From NCBI GenBank assembly GCA_000004985.1, contig GG739184.1: DNA of 4,480 nt, one strand, 5' to 3'. The notes under the pieces are model-generated. The model made no database searches. It was not told where the DNA came from and saw nothing but the letters and a program-made list of their open reading frames with translations. This stretch comes from Naegleria gruberi (taxonomy: Eukaryota). Both the position numbers and the translations under genes were made by a program. This document shows positions 1 through 4,480 of the stretch, piece by piece; position 1 is the first letter of the stretch, and the number at the start of each line of letters is the position of its first letter.

Positions 1-328
1 TCAAAGTGATTACGTTAAAAATTGAATTTTGGCAACCCAGCACCTAATAATCCAAATAGGAACATGGTTACACCATAATAATCCTTACTCATGAACATGA
101 ACAATTTCTTCTAAATTCATACATTTTTTTGAATCACCTTGTTTAGAACCATAGCACACACGCAAGCCTCATTGTTATTTGCAAGCTATAACACAGCGTA
201 GCTCTCCTTAATCCACATACGCAGCATTGTCCACTAATTTGTTGTGATTTGAAGTTTGATCGTAAATTGTTGAAAATTATTCAACACTCAAAAACAAATA
301 ACGACAAACAAATACACTCAACACTGGG
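1..328 (+). promoter_or_regulatory. Non-coding 5' flank of the downstream gene (presumed promoter plus 5' UTR)
   Basis: No ORF of meaningful length on either strand; on the minus strand all three frames hit stops before position 1. It directly precedes the ATG at 329, which follows an in-frame TAA at 299..301. A TATAA-like element sits at 187..191, a T7 run at 124..130, and an imperfect palindrome TTGAAAATTATTCAA at 270..284. The transcription start is not determinable from sequence. Confidence 0.3.
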
Positions 329-400
329 ATGCAAAAGTCTTTCTTATTGATCTCTCTTCTCTGTGTGATTGCGTTCTTGCACTTGTTCCCTGTTGAGGGA
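329..400 (+). other. Predicted N-terminal signal peptide (about 24 aa)
   Basis: MQKS followed by an uninterrupted hydrophobic stretch FLLISLLCVIAFLHLF, then PVEG-G (small residues at -3/-1, a plausible signal-peptidase site). The cleavage position is approximate. Confidence 0.55.
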
Positions 401-663
401 GGCACTGGACAAACTATTGTTGGTGATTTGAACATTGATCCTGTATTGGGATTAGATGCTAGTGAGACCAGATTTAGGTACCTCAGTTCCTTCTGTTTAG
501 ATCCAAGAAATGGCGATATGTACGTAGCTGATGACCATTTCAACAAGGTTTTCAAGATTGATCATCAAACCAATGTTGTCTCTTGGTTTGCTGGTAATGG
601 TGTTGAAACCAAATGTGCTAGAACTGGACCAAACTATTGCAACGACAAAACAGACAAATTATC
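329..663 (+). CDS. 5' end (N-terminus) of a large secreted NHL-repeat / EGF-repeat protein; the coding sequence runs into the N-run
   Basis: ATG 329 is the first ATG after the in-frame stop TAA at 299..301 (frame 2). The translation MQKSFLLISLLCVIAFLHLFPVEGG... is a classic signal peptide. It is followed by an NHL-blade-like segment (...LDPRNGDMYVADDHFNKVFKIDHQTNVVSWFAGNG) and then VETKCARTGPNYCNDKTDKL. This second segment has the same AG-x-G...C...C...KL linker architecture seen repeatedly after the gap (e.g. VAGSAGNCASGTCATFSASATDSTAKL). The ORF is still open at 663, where the Ns begin. The ORF-track entry 329..2143 is real only up to 663. Confidence 0.75.
470..661 (+). repeat. First NHL-type beta-propeller blade plus the Cys-pair linker of the next blade (pre-gap)
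   Basis: The GDMYVADDHFNKVFKID motif (Tyr codon at 521) matches the G-x-[IV]-Y-[VF]-A-D-x-x-N/H-x-[IV]-R-K-I blade core repeated after the gap. The following segment KCARTGPNYC (Cys codons at 614 and 638) matches the C-x(4-7)-C linker found ahead of later blades. Confidence 0.55.
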
Positions 664-2110
664 NNNNNNNNNNNNNNNNNNNNNNNNNNNNNNNNNNNNN
701 NNNNNNNNNNNNNNNNNNNNNNNNNNNNNNNNNNNNNNNNNNNNNNNNNNNNNNNNNNNNNNNNNNNNNNNNNNNNNNNNNNNNNNNNNNNNNNNNNNNN
801 NNNNNNNNNNNNNNNNNNNNNNNNNNNNNNNNNNNNNNNNNNNNNNNNNNNNNNNNNNNNNNNNNNNNNNNNNNNNNNNNNNNNNNNNNNNNNNNNNNNN
901 NNNNNNNNNNNNNNNNNNNNNNNNNNNNNNNNNNNNNNNNNNNNNNNNNNNNNNNNNNNNNNNNNNNNNNNNNNNNNNNNNNNNNNNNNNNNNNNNNNNN
1001 NNNNNNNNNNNNNNNNNNNNNNNNNNNNNNNNNNNNNNNNNNNNNNNNNNNNNNNNNNNNNNNNNNNNNNNNNNNNNNNNNNNNNNNNNNNNNNNNNNNN
1101 NNNNNNNNNNNNNNNNNNNNNNNNNNNNNNNNNNNNNNNNNNNNNNNNNNNNNNNNNNNNNNNNNNNNNNNNNNNNNNNNNNNNNNNNNNNNNNNNNNNN
1201 NNNNNNNNNNNNNNNNNNNNNNNNNNNNNNNNNNNNNNNNNNNNNNNNNNNNNNNNNNNNNNNNNNNNNNNNNNNNNNNNNNNNNNNNNNNNNNNNNNNN
1301 NNNNNNNNNNNNNNNNNNNNNNNNNNNNNNNNNNNNNNNNNNNNNNNNNNNNNNNNNNNNNNNNNNNNNNNNNNNNNNNNNNNNNNNNNNNNNNNNNNNN
1401 NNNNNNNNNNNNNNNNNNNNNNNNNNNNNNNNNNNNNNNNNNNNNNNNNNNNNNNNNNNNNNNNNNNNNNNNNNNNNNNNNNNNNNNNNNNNNNNNNNNN
1501 NNNNNNNNNNNNNNNNNNNNNNNNNNNNNNNNNNNNNNNNNNNNNNNNNNNNNNNNNNNNNNNNNNNNNNNNNNNNNNNNNNNNNNNNNNNNNNNNNNNN
1601 NNNNNNNNNNNNNNNNNNNNNNNNNNNNNNNNNNNNNNNNNNNNNNNNNNNNNNNNNNNNNNNNNNNNNNNNNNNNNNNNNNNNNNNNNNNNNNNNNNNN
1701 NNNNNNNNNNNNNNNNNNNNNNNNNNNNNNNNNNNNNNNNNNNNNNNNNNNNNNNNNNNNNNNNNNNNNNNNNNNNNNNNNNNNNNNNNNNNNNNNNNNN
1801 NNNNNNNNNNNNNNNNNNNNNNNNNNNNNNNNNNNNNNNNNNNNNNNNNNNNNNNNNNNNNNNNNNNNNNNNNNNNNNNNNNNNNNNNNNNNNNNNNNNN
1901 NNNNNNNNNNNNNNNNNNNNNNNNNNNNNNNNNNNNNNNNNNNNNNNNNNNNNNNNNNNNNNNNNNNNNNNNNNNNNNNNNNNNNNNNNNNNNNNNNNNN
2001 NNNNNNNNNNNNNNNNNNNNNNNNNNNNNNNNNNNNNNNNNNNNNNNNNNNNNNNNNNNNNNNNNNNNNNNNNNNNNNNNNNNNNNNNNNNNNNNNNNNN
2101 NNNNNNNNNN
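664..2110. other. Run of 1447 N (assembly gap or hard-masked sequence) interrupting the gene
   Basis: Directly visible. The non-round length (1447) suggests masked real sequence or a size-estimated gap rather than a conventional fixed spacer. Nothing inside can be annotated. Confidence 0.99.
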
Positions 2111-2111
2111 G

Positions 2112-4480
2112 AGGTGGTCAGCTACTGCAGCAACGTTCTCTAATTCTATCATAGTTGCAGTTGACAGCAATGACAACATCTACGTTATGGACAATGGTGT
2201 ATATGTTTTAAGAATGATTAGAGCTAGCAATGGAAATATAGAAAGAGTGGCAGGTACCTATACCACTATCTGTTCTGACGGCAATTGTGGAGATGGAGGA
2301 AGTGCACTCAGTGCCAAATTGACAGCTGTAAAGAATATTGAAATTCATCCAATTACTGGTGACATTTACTTGGCGGAAGCTAACAGAATCAGAAAAATTA
2401 GTGGTGGTATTATCAGTACAGTTGTTGGTGCTTTTGGAAGAAATTATGATTCTTTAGTCACTGGTGCCTGGGCAAATCCGTTGGATGTTGGTATTGCCCC
2501 AACAAGAATTTCCTTCTCACCTACTGGTCAATTGTATTTCAATGATGGTAGTTCTTATTGGTCAATGCGTACTTTGAAAGATGGATTGGTTAGACCTGTC
2601 TCTGGATTTTTAATTTCCACAACAGACAGGTTTAATTACAATGGAGAAGACTTGCTACCAACTAAGGTAAAACTCTCAAATCCAACTTCAGTGTTTTTGG
2701 ACTCGAATGGCAATGTTTTTGTTGGTTGTTCTGGAACCTCAAGTACAACTGGAGGTGAAAATGATGCCAGAATTGTAAAGGTTGATGTCAATTCCAATAC
2801 TGCTTCCACATTCATTGGAACTTTAACTGAGGCTTCAGCAATTTCTGAAAACACAATTAGAACCAAAACTTCACTCAAACCATATGCTTCAATCTATACA
2901 GGTCTTTATACACCCTTCGGAATTCATGTAACTCCAAACGGAGATGTATACTTTGCAGATCCAAGTCGTTATGTAATCAGAATGTACAATGCAACCCTGG
3001 GAACTGTTAGTACAATTGCAGGTACTATGAACACAGTTTGTACCGATAGTATTTGTGATAATGGTCAACCAGCACTAAGTGCTCATTTCAAACTCCCGAC
3101 CTCAATATTCGTCACCGACGATGGAACTATTTATGTCTCTGATACTCAATTGCATCAAATTAGAAAAATTCAGAATGGAATTATTACAGCAATTGCTGGA
3201 ACTGGAACTCAATGCACCACTGCAGGATCTAATACTTGCGATCATGGTTCTACATCTCCATTGCGCGTTGACTTGTATACTCCAATGGGTATTTATGTTA
3301 CCAAGAGTGGTGAAGTATATTTTGCAGATACTTCCAACCATAAGGTTAGAAAAATCTCAAGTGATGGCCTCACCATAACTACAGTGGCCGGATCAGCTGG
3401 AAATTGTGCCTCTGGAACTTGTGCCACTTTCAGTGCATCCGCTACAGACTCAACTGCAAAACTCTTCTATCCAACTGGAGTTGTTGTCAATGAAACATCC
3501 GGTTCAATTTACATTGCAGATCAAGGAACTCACACCATTAGAGTAGTTTCTTCAAATGGTTCAATGAGTGTTTATGCTGGTACTTTCCCAGGCATGGCGT
3601 TCAATGATGCTGGAGCCACTCAATTCAGTGCAGAAGGATCATCAAAGTACCTTAATTTACCAACAAGTATTTTCCTTAAAGATAACTCAATTTATGTGAC
3701 AGAGCCAGTTTTTGGAAGAGTTAGACGTGTGACTCAAAACTGTAGAGCTGGATATGGTGGCGATAATTGTGAAACTCCTATTTGTTTTGAAATTCTGGCA
3801 ACTTATTCAACCGTTTGTTCAGGAAATGGTGCATGTATTGAAAGTGACACTTGTCAATGTAATGCTGGAAGTTCAGGAAGTAATTGTTCTCAAACAACTT
3901 CCAATTGTAGATCTGGTTTCTATGGAAGTAATTGTGAAATTTCCAATTGTTATGGAAAGTTTTCAAATGATTCATCTGTTTGCAGTGGGCATGGCCGTTG
4001 CAATTCAACTGATTCCTGCTCTTGTTCACCTAACTATTTTGGAGGAAATTGTCAAATTACAACATGTTTCAATACTCAAAGTAATGACAGCTCAGTATGT
4101 TCTGGACATGGTGTATGCTCATCCTATGATCAATGTTCATGTAATTCTAATTATTATGGATACAATTGTAATATTACAACATGTGGAGGAGTATTTTCAA
4201 ATGACTCTAGTGTCTGTAGTGGTAATGGAAATTGTGTTGATTTTAACCAATGTAATTGTGTACAAAACTCTGGTTCCAATTGTGCTGAACCAATAATCCC
4301 AACAATCTACTGTTTTGGAATTCTTGCCAATGATTCAAATATTTGTTCTGGAAATGGTCAATGTAATGCAACTGATATCTGTATTTGTGATTCTCTATTC
4401 TCTGGTTTCGATTGTTCGAATGATACCTCTAATGCTAACAATAACAGTACTTTTAATAACAATACCAACACTGACAATAG
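2112..4480 (+). CDS. Continuation of the same secreted protein: NHL beta-propeller blades, then tenascin-type EGF-like repeats, then an Asn/Thr-rich tail. It is open at both ends (5' into the N-run, 3' past the window edge)
   Basis: I translated frame 0 by hand codon by codon from 2112 to 4480. That gives 789 sense codons and no stop. The product shows strongly periodic, recognisable domain content: nine blades with a Y-[VIF]-x-[DE] core, then CSG[HN]GxC...CxC...GxxC EGF repeats. Every other long ORF the track lists in this span is in frame +1 or antisense. The track omits this ORF, presumably because it contains no in-window stop and its start is upstream. Confidence 0.85.
2163..3737 (+). 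repeat. Array of nine NHL-type beta-propeller blade repeats (183-192 nt, i.e. about 62-aa, period)
   Basis: Blade-core Tyr/Phe codons fall at 2181, 2367, 2535, 2718, 2949, 3132, 3318, 3510 and 3693. The corresponding motifs are DNIYVMD, GDIYLAE, GQLYFND, GNVFVGC, GDVYFAD, GTIYVSD, GEVYFAD, GSIYIAD and NSIYVTE. Most are followed by x-x-[IV]-R-K-I and G-x-I-[ST]-T-[IV]-A-G. Several are preceded by A-L-S-A-x-[LF]-x-x-P, which is the GDGG-x-A-x-x-A-x-L-type NHL consensus. The Pfam NHL (PF01436) assignment comes from motif recognition and has not been computed. Confidence 0.7.
3741..4415 (+). repeat. Tenascin-type EGF-like repeat array: five six-cysteine repeats plus two two-cysteine half-motifs
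   Basis: The translation reads CRAGYGGDNCETPI, then CFEILATYSTVCSGNGACIESDTCQCNAGSSGSNCSQTTSN, then CRSGFYGSNCEISN. Three 39-aa units follow, beginning at 3948, 4065 and 4182 (CYGKFSNDSSVCSGHGRCNSTDSCSCSPNYFGGNCQITT, CFNTQSNDSSVCSGHGVCSSYDQCSCNSNYYGYNCNITT and CGGVFSNDSSVCSGNGNCVDFNQCNCVQNSGSNC...). A fifth unit starts at 4311 (CFGILANDSNICSGNGQCNATDICICDSLFSGFDC). This is the C-x(n)-C-S-G-x-G-x-C-x(4,5)-C-x-C-x(5,8)-G-x-x-C spacing typical of tenascin/teneurin-type EGF. Confidence 0.8.
4416..4480 (+). other. Asn/Thr/Ser-rich low-complexity segment. The coding sequence continues past the window edge
   Basis: Frame-0 translation SNDTSNANNNSTFNNNTNTDN with no stop before 4480. The sequence is built from aat/aac/act codons and contains several N-x-[ST] sequons. 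Confidence 0.6.

What the first reader, a model, noticed from the sequence alone, without database searches (positions are those of the whole stretch)
329..4480. Pre-gap and post-gap coding pieces are one gene; the blade spacing predicts about 18 NHL blades (three six-bladed propellers), with a 1-nt frame discrepancy across the N-run
The N-terminal piece (329..663, frame 2) carries a signal peptide, one blade (Tyr codon at 521), and the start of a C-x-C linker ending ...DKTDKL. The post-gap ORF is open from the N edge and begins mid-blade (ATAATFSNSIIVAVDSNDNIYVMD, Tyr codon at 2181), so both pieces are cut inside the same repeat type. The distance from 521 to 2181 is 1660 nt, which at the observed 183-192 nt period is 9 intervals. 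If the masked length is real and all coding, about 8 more blades are hidden, giving 1 + 8 + 9 = 18, a multiple of the canonical six-blade NHL propeller. However 1660 is congruent to 1 (mod 3), and the frames differ (2 before the gap, 0 after). Continuing frame 2 after the gap hits TAA at 2141..2143 within 11 codons. So one of the following must be true: the N-run length is wrong by ±1 (mod 3), the hidden sequence carries a 1-nt indel (a sequencing error or a genuine frameshift/pseudogenisation), or there is an intron of length congruent to 1 (mod 3) inside the gap.
Basis: partly seen in the sequence, partly recalled or inferred. Interest (0 to 1): 0.55.

Follow-up and report, generated by a model that had tools for sequence, protein, structure and literature searches.

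The report
One amoeba gene split by assembly gap
The two coding pieces are parts of one Naegleria gruberi surface-protein gene broken by a draft-assembly gap; a separate small scaffold of the same assembly supplies most of the missing part, and the 1-nt frame mismatch most likely comes from the estimated gap length.

Summary
The window is a complete 4480-nt Naegleria gruberi scaffold. It carries the RefSeq partial protein XP_002668244.1 and a 1447-N gap (664..2110).

- the ORF starting at 329 in frame 2
- the ORF open from 2112 in frame 0
- TAA at 2141
- anchor codons at 521 and 2181
- nine blades after the gap

New evidence: another N. gruberi partial protein, XP_002667977.1 (366 aa, on a 1151-nt scaffold), begins with KCARTGPNYCNDKTDKL. 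That is exactly the last 17 residues before the gap. It then runs 349 residues further and adds six NHL blades. AlphaFold gives 24 strands at pLDDT 86.

So the ORF continues into the gap, and 16 blades are now seen directly. About 400 N remain, which fits two more blades. The implied gap for 18 blades is about 1466 nt, against 1447 N. Full-length Naegleria paralogues carry 6, 12 or 18 blades, so three six-bladed propellers is the best estimate (about 0.75).

The frame offset most likely carries no information, because scaffold gap lengths are normally estimates. The RefSeq model hides the offset with a false intron (594..2153) that deletes coding sequence.

Verdict: the gene is an ordinary member of a Naegleria family with NHL propellers followed by EGF repeats. 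Interest is low.

The parts
329..400 (+). Start codon and predicted signal peptide (MQKSFLLISLLCVIAFLHLFPVEG)
   Evidence: It is the first ATG after the in-frame stop at 299. The n-region contains Lys and is followed by a 17-residue hydrophobic core. The signal peptide is read from the sequence; no predictor was run.
401..448 (+). N-terminal strand-like motif (GTGQTIVGD) before blade 1, possibly the clasp strand that closes the first propeller
   Evidence: It resembles the fourth-strand motif I-x-T-[IV]-[AV]-G. The Naegleria paralogues carry an equivalent motif directly after their N-terminal hydrophobic stretch, or near the N-terminus in P0006. The ring-closing role is an inference.
449..598 (+). 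NHL-type blade 1 (anchor Tyr codon at 521)
   Evidence: The blade HMM envelope covers residues 41-90 at 31 bits.
599..663 (+). Cys-pair linker (GNGVETKCARTGPNYCNDKTDKL plus 'tc'). Positions 611..663 overlap the start of XP_002667977.1.
   Evidence: P0141 begins KCARTGPNYCNDKTDKL-S. That is 17 of 17 identical residues, and TCN codes for Ser.
664..2110 (.). Assembly gap of 1447 N. About 1045 nt of it is covered, at protein level, by the unplaced 1151-nt scaffold encoding XP_002667977.1 (blades 2-7). About 400 nt remain unknown, inferred to hold blades 8-9.
594..2153 (+). False 'intron' (GT..AG, phase 1) of RefSeq model XP_002668244.1, drawn across the gap
   Evidence: P0001 joins ...VVSWFA to VAVDSNDNIY. 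That join deletes 23 pre-gap and 14 post-gap in-frame codons, and P0141 reads through the deleted pre-gap codons.
2111..3761 (+). Nine NHL-type blades (frame 0 from 2112), with anchor codons 2181, 2367, 2535, 2718, 2949, 3132, 3318, 3510 and 3693. The first blade begins right at the gap edge.
   Evidence: Pfam TEN_NHL 98 bits and NHL 64.7 bits. Blade HMM. AlphaFold2 pLDDT 78 with nine strand groups. Foldseek matches to six-bladed NHL propellers.
3750..4421 (+). At least five teneurin-type EGF-like repeats (six Cys each, recurring SNDSSVCSGxGxC motif)
   Evidence: Pfam EGF_Teneurin 61.1 bits and EGF_2 58.8 bits, both above cut-off. EGF_TEN scores 46.2 bits, below its cut-off of 65. Translation.
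4422..4480 (+). Asn/Thr-rich low-complexity tail. The ORF runs off the scaffold end, so the C-terminus is missing.
   Evidence: The paralogues continue to a C-terminal hydrophobic anchor.

Best explanation
The window is a whole small scaffold of the Naegleria gruberi NEG-M Sanger draft assembly. It holds the 5' end and the middle of one gene for a secreted, probably membrane-anchored, surface protein. The protein consists of a signal peptide, a long array of NHL-type beta-propeller blades, at least five teneurin-type EGF repeats, and an Asn/Thr-rich stalk; its C-terminus lies beyond the scaffold.

The N-run is an assembly gap whose length is most likely a mate-pair estimate. On that reading the 1-nt frame offset carries no biological information: two of every three arbitrary gap lengths would give an offset. 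With no intron, the true gap must be 1047+3m nt.

Most of the hidden sequence exists in the same assembly, on an unplaced 1151-nt scaffold that encodes XP_002667977.1. That scaffold overlaps the left gap edge and adds six blades. Sixteen blades are therefore seen directly. Two more are inferred in the remaining ~400 nt, giving 18 blades, or three six-bladed propellers.

Shown: the coordinates, the frames, the protein-level overlap, 16 blades, the six-blade fold of the recovered segment, and the domain families.

Inferred: that the 1151-nt scaffold is the same locus at nucleotide level, the last two blades, the propeller register, the membrane anchoring, and an adhesion or ligand-binding role.
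For: - Identity of the window: P0001 is 100% identical, named 'predicted protein, partial [Naegleria gruberi]', and sits on a contig of exactly 4480 nt.
- Continuation into the gap: P0141 starts with the 17 terminal pre-gap residues and then Ser, which matches 'tc'. It lies on a 1151-nt contig.
- Fold of the recovered segment: the AlphaFold2 model of P0141 has pLDDT 86.4, pTM 0.89 and 24 strands, which is six four-stranded blades. It aligns with TM 0.76-0.80 to the six-bladed NHL domains of NHLRC2 and SOQ1.
- Post-gap part: nine blades. Pizza6 and PknD align at TMt 0.81-0.86.
- Blade counts: paralogues have 6, 12, 12, 18 and 18. Homologue counts peak at 12 (50), 13 (20), 18 (16) and 19 (8), and 16 is rare (3).
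- Gap arithmetic: 14 known intervals average 187.7 +/- 15.4 nt. The implied gap is 1091, 1278, 1466 or 1654 nt for 16, 17, 18 or 19 blades, against an N-run of 1447.
- Assembly type: the N. gruberi assembly is Sanger, with 1,977 scaffolds and 35% GC (PMC9928731). The window's coding GC is 0.33-0.43.
Against: - The DNA of the 1151-nt scaffold could not be fetched. The overlap is shown only at protein level (17 aa plus 2 nt), so an allele or a very recent paralogue cannot be excluded.
- About 53 nt of that scaffold are not in its protein model. If they are coding and abut the right edge, the true gap would be about 1.09 kb and the protein would have 16 blades.
- A scaffold this small probably rests on few mate pairs, so its gap estimate could be wrong by a few hundred nt.
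- A test of the propeller register by blade-to-blade similarity was inconclusive.
- The AlphaFold2 coordinates could not be inspected. Which six of the nine post-gap blades close a ring was therefore not seen.
- That the N-run length is an estimate rests on my own knowledge of Sanger scaffolding, not on the record's gap annotation.
Confidence: 0.75

Rival explanations
1. It is one gene, but with 16 blades. The 1151-nt scaffold nearly bridges the gap: its last modelled residues (...VKRLAG) are followed by about 10-15 linker residues and then RWSATAATF... The true gap would be about 1.08-1.09 kb, and the 1447 estimate would be about 360 nt too long.
For: P0141 ends at the end of a blade and the post-gap ORF starts at the beginning of one, so only a linker need be missing. 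53 nt of the 1151-nt contig are not used by its protein model (366 aa on 1151 nt). Gap estimates for tiny scaffolds are imprecise (general knowledge).
Against: Sixteen is not a multiple of six. The full-length paralogues have 6, 12 or 18 blades, and a count of 16 is rare among 120 homologues. With the first six and last six blades forming propellers, a four-bladed NHL ring would be left in the middle. The N-run length fits 18 blades to within 19 nt and misses 16 by 356 nt.
Confidence: 0.13
2. The frame offset is real. The unrecovered ~400 nt contain a short spliceosomal intron of length 1 mod 3, or a true 1-nt indel (a pseudogene or a programmed frameshift).
For: N. gruberi genes can contain introns (general knowledge). 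The last ~400 nt are unseen. The offset is there in the record.
Against: The offset is expected by chance for two of every three estimated gap lengths. The 1098 coding nt on the 1151-nt scaffold leave no room for an intron longer than 53 nt in the first ~1045 nt. Both flanks are long, intact, conserved ORFs with zero stops in 789 codons, which argues against a pseudogene. An intron would also take space needed for two blades.
Confidence: 0.08
3. The RefSeq/JGI gene model is right. A 1560-nt intron (594..2153) spans the gap and the mature protein has only 10 blades.
For: GT at 594 and AG at 2152-2153 exist, and the join restores the frame.
Against: The ORF reads straight through the supposed donor and is continued by P0141 for 349 residues. 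The model deletes 23+14 in-frame codons that carry the family's conserved Cys-pair linker and the first strand of a blade. It fuses two blade halves. The same model also stops at a GTATGT at 4095 inside an open EGF-coding ORF, so pseudo-donor calls are a habit of this model.
Confidence: 0.02
4. There are two genes. The first ends inside the gap and a second paralogue begins there.
For: Family members occur as neighbours in N. lovaniensis: locus tags C9374_011612 and C9374_011613 lie on one contig.
Against: After P0141, at most about 400 nt of the estimated gap remain. The post-gap ORF is open from the very gap edge and starts at the beginning of a blade, with no signal peptide. All paralogues place an EGF array and an anchor after the last blade, and neither would fit.
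Confidence: 0.02

Closest known systems
Naegleria paralogues with NHL propellers followed by EGF repeats (N. gruberi P0032 and P0108, N. lovaniensis C9374_003885 = P0003, N. fowleri P0006; P0016 has the propellers only)
   Same: They share the order of parts: an N-terminal hydrophobic signal, a strand-like motif, an array of ~57-62-aa NHL blades and an array of teneurin-type EGF repeats. The paralogues then end in a C-terminal hydrophobic anchor. Identity is 28-31% over 87-97% of the post-gap query.
   Different: There is no close orthologue; the best non-self hit is about 30% identical. Many inter-blade loops here carry Cys pairs. The C-terminus is not in the window. None of these proteins has a tested function, and no paper in the searchable library describes the family.
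Teneurins and bacterial teneurin-like proteins (PDB 9IFO/9PT5, Bacillus inaquosorum TLP; Ten2 6FB3)
   Same: These give the best sequence and fold matches among solved structures: 9ifo at E 1.5e-29 and as Foldseek top hit. The teneurin NHL domain is a six-bladed propeller whose top-face loops are stabilised by disulphides (PMC5851990). The EGF repeats here hit Pfam's teneurin EGF models.
   Different: There is no FN-plug and no YD/RHS shell. The orientation is opposite: a signal peptide at the N-terminus, with NHL before EGF. There are three tandem propellers rather than one. The protein shares domain types with teneurins but is not one.
Single six-bladed NHL domains: NHLRC2 (6G7W), SOQ1 lumenal domain (7DJJ), PknD sensor (1RWI), designed Pizza6
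   Same: The fold of one propeller unit matches, with TM 0.76-0.86.
   Different: Those proteins have one propeller in other domain contexts (thioredoxin-like domain, kinase). Sequence identity is 17-24%.
Bacterial multi-propeller NHL proteins annotated 'sugar lactone lactonase YvrE' or 'NHL repeat-containing' (for example P0004 Kofleriaceae, P0008 Spirosoma)
   Same: They carry tandem arrays of 12-24 NHL blades with the same ~57-aa unit, at 27-31% identity over about 68% of the query.
   Different: They have no EGF array. They are prokaryotic and have other C-terminal domains.

Membership tests
NHL-repeat beta-propeller (Pfam PF01436, PF25021) | Sequence match to the NHL or TEN_NHL profiles above the curated cut-off | tested here: met
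   Post-gap part: TEN_NHL 98 bits (cut-off 27.1) and NHL 64.7 bits (cut-off 20). Joined N-terminal part: TEN_NHL 72.8 bits and NHL 49.9 bits. The pre-gap piece alone gives no hit.
NHL-repeat beta-propeller (Pfam PF01436, PF25021) | Blades are four-stranded antiparallel sheets | tested here: met
   AlphaFold2 secondary structure shows 6 x 4 strands in P0141. The post-gap part shows 8 x 4 strands plus a last blade of 3.
NHL-repeat beta-propeller (Pfam PF01436, PF25021) | Six blades close into one ring | tested here: inconclusive
   The P0141 model is compact (pTM 0.89) and superposes on six-bladed NHLRC2 and SOQ1 at TM 0.76-0.80. Any six consecutive blades might be modelled that way, however. 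The model coordinates could not be inspected, so the real register in the full protein is unknown.
Three-propeller (18-blade) architecture | Total blade number is 18 | tested here: inconclusive
   Sixteen blades are seen (1+6+9). Two more are inferred from the 402 remaining N and the multiple-of-six counts in paralogues.
Teneurin / teneurin-like protein | Superfold of FN-plug + NHL + YD (RHS) shell | tested here: not met
   Only NHL-type and EGF-type families were found at E <= 0.1, with no YD/RHS or FN-plug. The definition of the superfold is from PMC13018210. The unseen C-terminus cannot be excluded, but the paralogues have none (Pfam lists).
Teneurin / teneurin-like protein | Type II orientation, with EGF repeats N-terminal to the NHL domain | tested here: not met
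   The protein has an N-terminal signal peptide, and the NHL blades precede the EGF repeats.
Teneurin-type EGF repeats (PF23106) | Profile match above the cut-off, with the six-Cys pattern | tested here: met
   EGF_Teneurin scores 61.1 bits (cut-off 24.3) over four stretches. EGF_TEN scores 46.2 bits, below its cut-off of 65.
Naegleria NHL-EGF surface-protein family | C-terminal hydrophobic anchor (transmembrane or GPI-like) after the EGF array | not testable with these tools
   The ORF runs off the scaffold at 4480. P0006 and P0032 have a transmembrane stretch followed by a basic tail. P0003, P0108, P0016 and P0002 end in a hydrophobic stretch.
Spliceosomal intron across the gap (RefSeq model) | The sequence between donor and acceptor is non-coding and is removed | tested here: not met
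   GT and AG are present. The frame stays open through the donor, and P0141 continues it for 349 residues. No cDNA was available.

The most novel reading that the evidence does not exclude
Naegleria carries an undescribed, expanded family of surface proteins. They pair bacterial-like tandem NHL propellers (6, 12 or 18 blades; the nearest non-Naegleria relatives of the blade array are bacterial at about 30% identity) with teneurin-type EGF arrays. These are the same two extracellular module types that teneurins combine, but here they are assembled in the opposite order and without the YD shell. That could reflect an independent acquisition of bacterial NHL arrays by a heterolobosean, parallel to the bacterial origin of teneurins.
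Probability: 0.25. Interest if true: 0.4.

Novelty: new member of a known kind. Interest (0 to 1): 0.15.

Why it matters
The result is mainly a curation fix.

- Two RefSeq 'partial' proteins of N. gruberi, XP_002668244.1 and XP_002667977.1, are fragments of one gene.
- The deposited model of the first contains a false intron drawn over an assembly gap, and a false 3' end.
- An unplaced 1151-nt scaffold belongs in the gap of this scaffold.

It also shows that frame offsets across N-runs in draft scaffolds should not be read as frameshifts, introns or pseudogenes.

Biologically it adds one more large member, about 18 blades, to an uncharacterised Naegleria family with NHL propellers followed by EGF repeats. 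No open question becomes testable through it.

Tried and rejected
1. Fetching the DNA of the scaffolds that encode P0001 and P0141. Neither protein is on record in the contig index.
2. An exact 30-mer from the left gap edge against metagenome contigs gave 0 hits.
3. A protein-guided scan of metagenome contigs with P0141 gave only distant relatives, mostly 27-37% identity (one short segment at 49%), and no orthologue with a closed gene.
4. A third protein search with the P0141 C-terminus plus the post-gap N-terminus, to walk further into the gap, returned only P0141 and two distant hits.
6. A register test asked whether blades of the N-terminal part resemble post-gap blades best at an offset of 2 mod 6. 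Offsets 2 and 3 tie, with permutation p 0.08-0.29, so the test is inconclusive.
7. DNA-level tandem repeats as a cause of the assembly break: none were found.
8. Literature on Naegleria NHL/EGF proteins: none in the searchable library. The N. gruberi genome paper itself is not held, so the statement that gap sizes are mate-pair estimates rests on general knowledge of Sanger scaffolding.
9. The JGI intron model and the two-gene model were considered and rejected (see the rival explanations).

Full report
**What the window is.** The 4480-nt window has a single N-run, 664..2110 (1447 N). The post-gap translation is 100% identical to P0001, 'predicted protein, partial [Naegleria gruberi]' (EFC35500.1 / XP_002668244.1). 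The only contig carrying P0001 is 4480 nt long. The window is therefore a complete small scaffold of the N. gruberi NEG-M draft assembly. That assembly was made from Sanger reads and has 40.9 Mb, 1,977 scaffolds and 35% GC (PMC9928731 Table 1). The window's coding GC of 0.33-0.43 fits.

**Check of the observation.**
- ATG 329 is the first ATG after the in-frame stop at 299. Frame 2 stays open to the gap, giving 111 codons plus 'tc'.
- After the gap, the frame starting at 2112 has no stop in 789 codons. The other two frames have 81 and 22 stops.
- Frame 2 continued over the N-run meets TAA at 2141..2143.
- The blade anchor codons are at 521 and then at 2181, 2367, 2535, 2718, 2949, 3132, 3318, 3510 and 3693. 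That makes one blade before the gap and nine after it.
- The distance from 521 to 2181 is 1660 nt, which is 1 mod 3.
- Pfam gives TEN_NHL (98 bits) and NHL (64.7 bits) for the post-gap part, followed by teneurin-type EGF repeats.
- The pre-gap piece has no Pfam hit by itself. A blade HMM built from the homologues scores it at 31 bits.
- The repeat is a protein-level repeat only. No DNA tandem repeat is present.

**The deposited gene model.** P0001 (735 aa) joins ...HQTNVVSWFA to VAVDSNDNIY....
- The model uses exon 329..593, an 'intron' from GT 594 to AG 2153 across the gap, and exon 2154..4094.
- That phase-1 intron hides the frame offset.
- It removes 23 in-frame pre-gap codons (GNGVETKCARTGPNYCNDKTDKL) and 14 post-gap codons (RWSATAATFSNSII).
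- These deleted codons carry the family's Cys-pair loop and the first strand of a blade.
- The model also stops at GTATGT (4095), although the EGF-coding frame stays open to 4480. Both splice calls look like artefacts.

**Key new evidence.** I searched with the two gap edges joined together. This found P0141, another 'predicted protein, partial [Naegleria gruberi]' (EFC35233.1 / XP_002667977.1), 366 aa long, on a separate 1151-nt contig.
- It begins KCARTGPNYCNDKTDKL, exactly the last 17 residues before the gap (window 611..661).
- Its next residue is Ser, which fits the dangling 'tc' at 662-663.
- It then continues for 349 residues.
- AlphaFold2 models it with pLDDT 86.4, pTM 0.89 and 24 strands, which is six four-stranded blades.
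- The model superposes on the six-bladed NHL domains of NHLRC2 and SOQ1 with TM 0.76-0.80.

The reading frame therefore does not end after 663, and six of the hidden blades are seen. What remains is too short for a second gene start.

**How many blades.** With no intron, the true gap length must be 1047+3m nt.
- The 14 known blade intervals average 187.7 +/- 15.4 nt.
- From the last P0141 anchor (virtual position 1637) to 2181 is 544 nt, against 563 +/- 27 nt for three intervals.
- The implied gap lengths for 16, 17, 18 and 19 blades are 1091, 1278, 1466 and 1654 nt. The N-run is 1447.
- Independently, full-length Naegleria paralogues have 6 (P0003), 12 (P0002, P0108) and 18 (P0006, P0016) blades.
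- Counts over the 120 best homologues peak at 12 (50) and 18 (16). The side peaks at 13 and 19 are explained by a partial hit to an N-terminal strand. A count of 16 is rare (3).
- Solved NHL domains, including the teneurin one, are six-bladed (PMC5851990; PMC13018210).
- The post-gap AlphaFold model (pLDDT 78, pTM 0.66) contains a unit that matches six-bladed Pizza6 and PknD at TMt 0.81-0.86.
- That model has a low-confidence linker between blades 3 and 4 (residues 165-184). This is compatible with a 3+6 split, but a second dip lies at 242-261.

Together these favour 1+6+2+9 = 18 blades, or three propellers, at about 0.75. The main alternative is 16 blades. In that case the 53 nt of the small scaffold that lie outside its protein model would reach the right edge, and the gap estimate would be about 360 nt too long.

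A direct test of the propeller register by blade-to-blade similarity was inconclusive. The model coordinates could not be inspected.

**The frame discrepancy.** N-run lengths in Sanger draft scaffolds are normally estimated from clone-mate distances. This is established practice and my own knowledge; the genome paper is not held. On that basis a 1-nt offset is what two of every three such estimates would give.
- The long, intact, conserved ORFs on both sides argue against a pseudogene.
- The 1098 coding nt on an 1151-nt contig leave no room for a sizeable intron in the recovered part.
- A short intron or an indel in the last ~400 nt cannot be formally excluded (about 0.08).

**What the gene encodes and how it probably works.**
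- Shown: a signal-peptide-like N-terminus, NHL blades, at least five six-Cys EGF repeats with a recurring SNDSSVCSGxGxC motif, and an Asn/Thr-rich tail that runs off the scaffold.
- Inferred from paralogues that end in a transmembrane or hydrophobic anchor: a cell-surface protein. The EGF stalk would hold three ligand-binding propellers away from the membrane.
- Also inferred: many inter-blade loops are stabilised by Cys pairs, as in the teneurin NHL top face.
- The N-terminal QTIVGD motif and the lack of a fourth strand in the last blade suggest that each ring is closed by a clasp strand (inference).
- No member of this family has a tested function, and no paper on it was found.

**Comparison with known families.**
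- It is not a teneurin. There is no FN-plug or YD shell, the orientation is opposite, and there are three propellers.
- It shares the NHL and EGF module types with teneurins. Its best solved relative is the bacterial teneurin-like protein 9IFO.
- The closest non-Naegleria relatives of the blade array are bacterial multi-propeller proteins at about 30% identity.

**Verdict.** The frame offset most likely reflects the estimated gap length rather than biology. The gene is an ordinary new member of a known kind. The useful outcome is a curation fix: two RefSeq partial proteins and two scaffolds belong together, and the deposited intron is false.

Noticed in passing
window 4095..4480: The RefSeq model XP_002668244.1 ends at 4094, just before a GTATGT. 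The same frame stays open to the scaffold end and encodes two more EGF repeats and an Asn/Thr-rich tail. The 3' end of the model is therefore probably a false donor call.
   Followed up: partly
window 4422..4480: An Asn/Thr-rich low-complexity tail (DTSNANNNSTFNNNTNTDN) follows the EGF array. It may be a glycosylated stalk before a membrane anchor that lies beyond the scaffold.
   Followed up: no
window 2718..2949 (post-gap blade 4 and the 4->5 linker): Blade 4 carries an insertion (GCSGTSSTTGGENDA) between its second and third strands. The following linker is unusually long, giving a 231-nt interval. Both have low confidence in the AlphaFold model (residues 212-215 and 242-261).
   Followed up: partly
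window 599..663, 2250..2290, 3030..3060, 3210..3245, 3395..3430; P0141 residues about 180-197: Cys-pair loops occur only between some blades. Under 18-blade numbering, the transitions 4->5, 10->11 and 16->17 all have one. That is the same position in each putative propeller, a weak hint in favour of the 18-blade register.
   Followed up: partly
P0002, P0003, P0006, P0016, P0108 N-termini: Every full-length paralogue has a fourth-strand-like motif (ISTVGG, ISTLIG, SSFAG, ETAAG, STFAG) ahead of its first blade, directly after the N-terminal hydrophobic stretch or near the N-terminus. Its last blade lacks that strand. This suggests clasp closure of the ring and explains the blade counts of 13 and 19 in the HMM census.
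   Followed up: partly
window 15..104, minus strand: A small ORF (MSKDYYGVTMFLFGLLGAGLPKFNF from its internal ATG) with a hydrophobic stretch lies at the scaffold start. There is no evidence that it is a gene.
   Followed up: no
P0002 (ENA metagenome contig of 5947 nt): A metagenome protein of unknown organism has the same architecture of 12 NHL blades and a long teneurin-type EGF array, and is the best non-self hit (30% identity). The family therefore occurs in environmental sequence data as well as in the three sequenced Naegleria species; the source organism is unknown.
   Followed up: no
P0012 and P0028 (N. lovaniensis C9374_011612 and C9374_011613, same 253,725-nt contig): Two family members carry adjacent locus tags in N. 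lovaniensis. One has 10 detectable blades starting at residue 445. They may be tandem paralogues or another split gene model.
   Followed up: no
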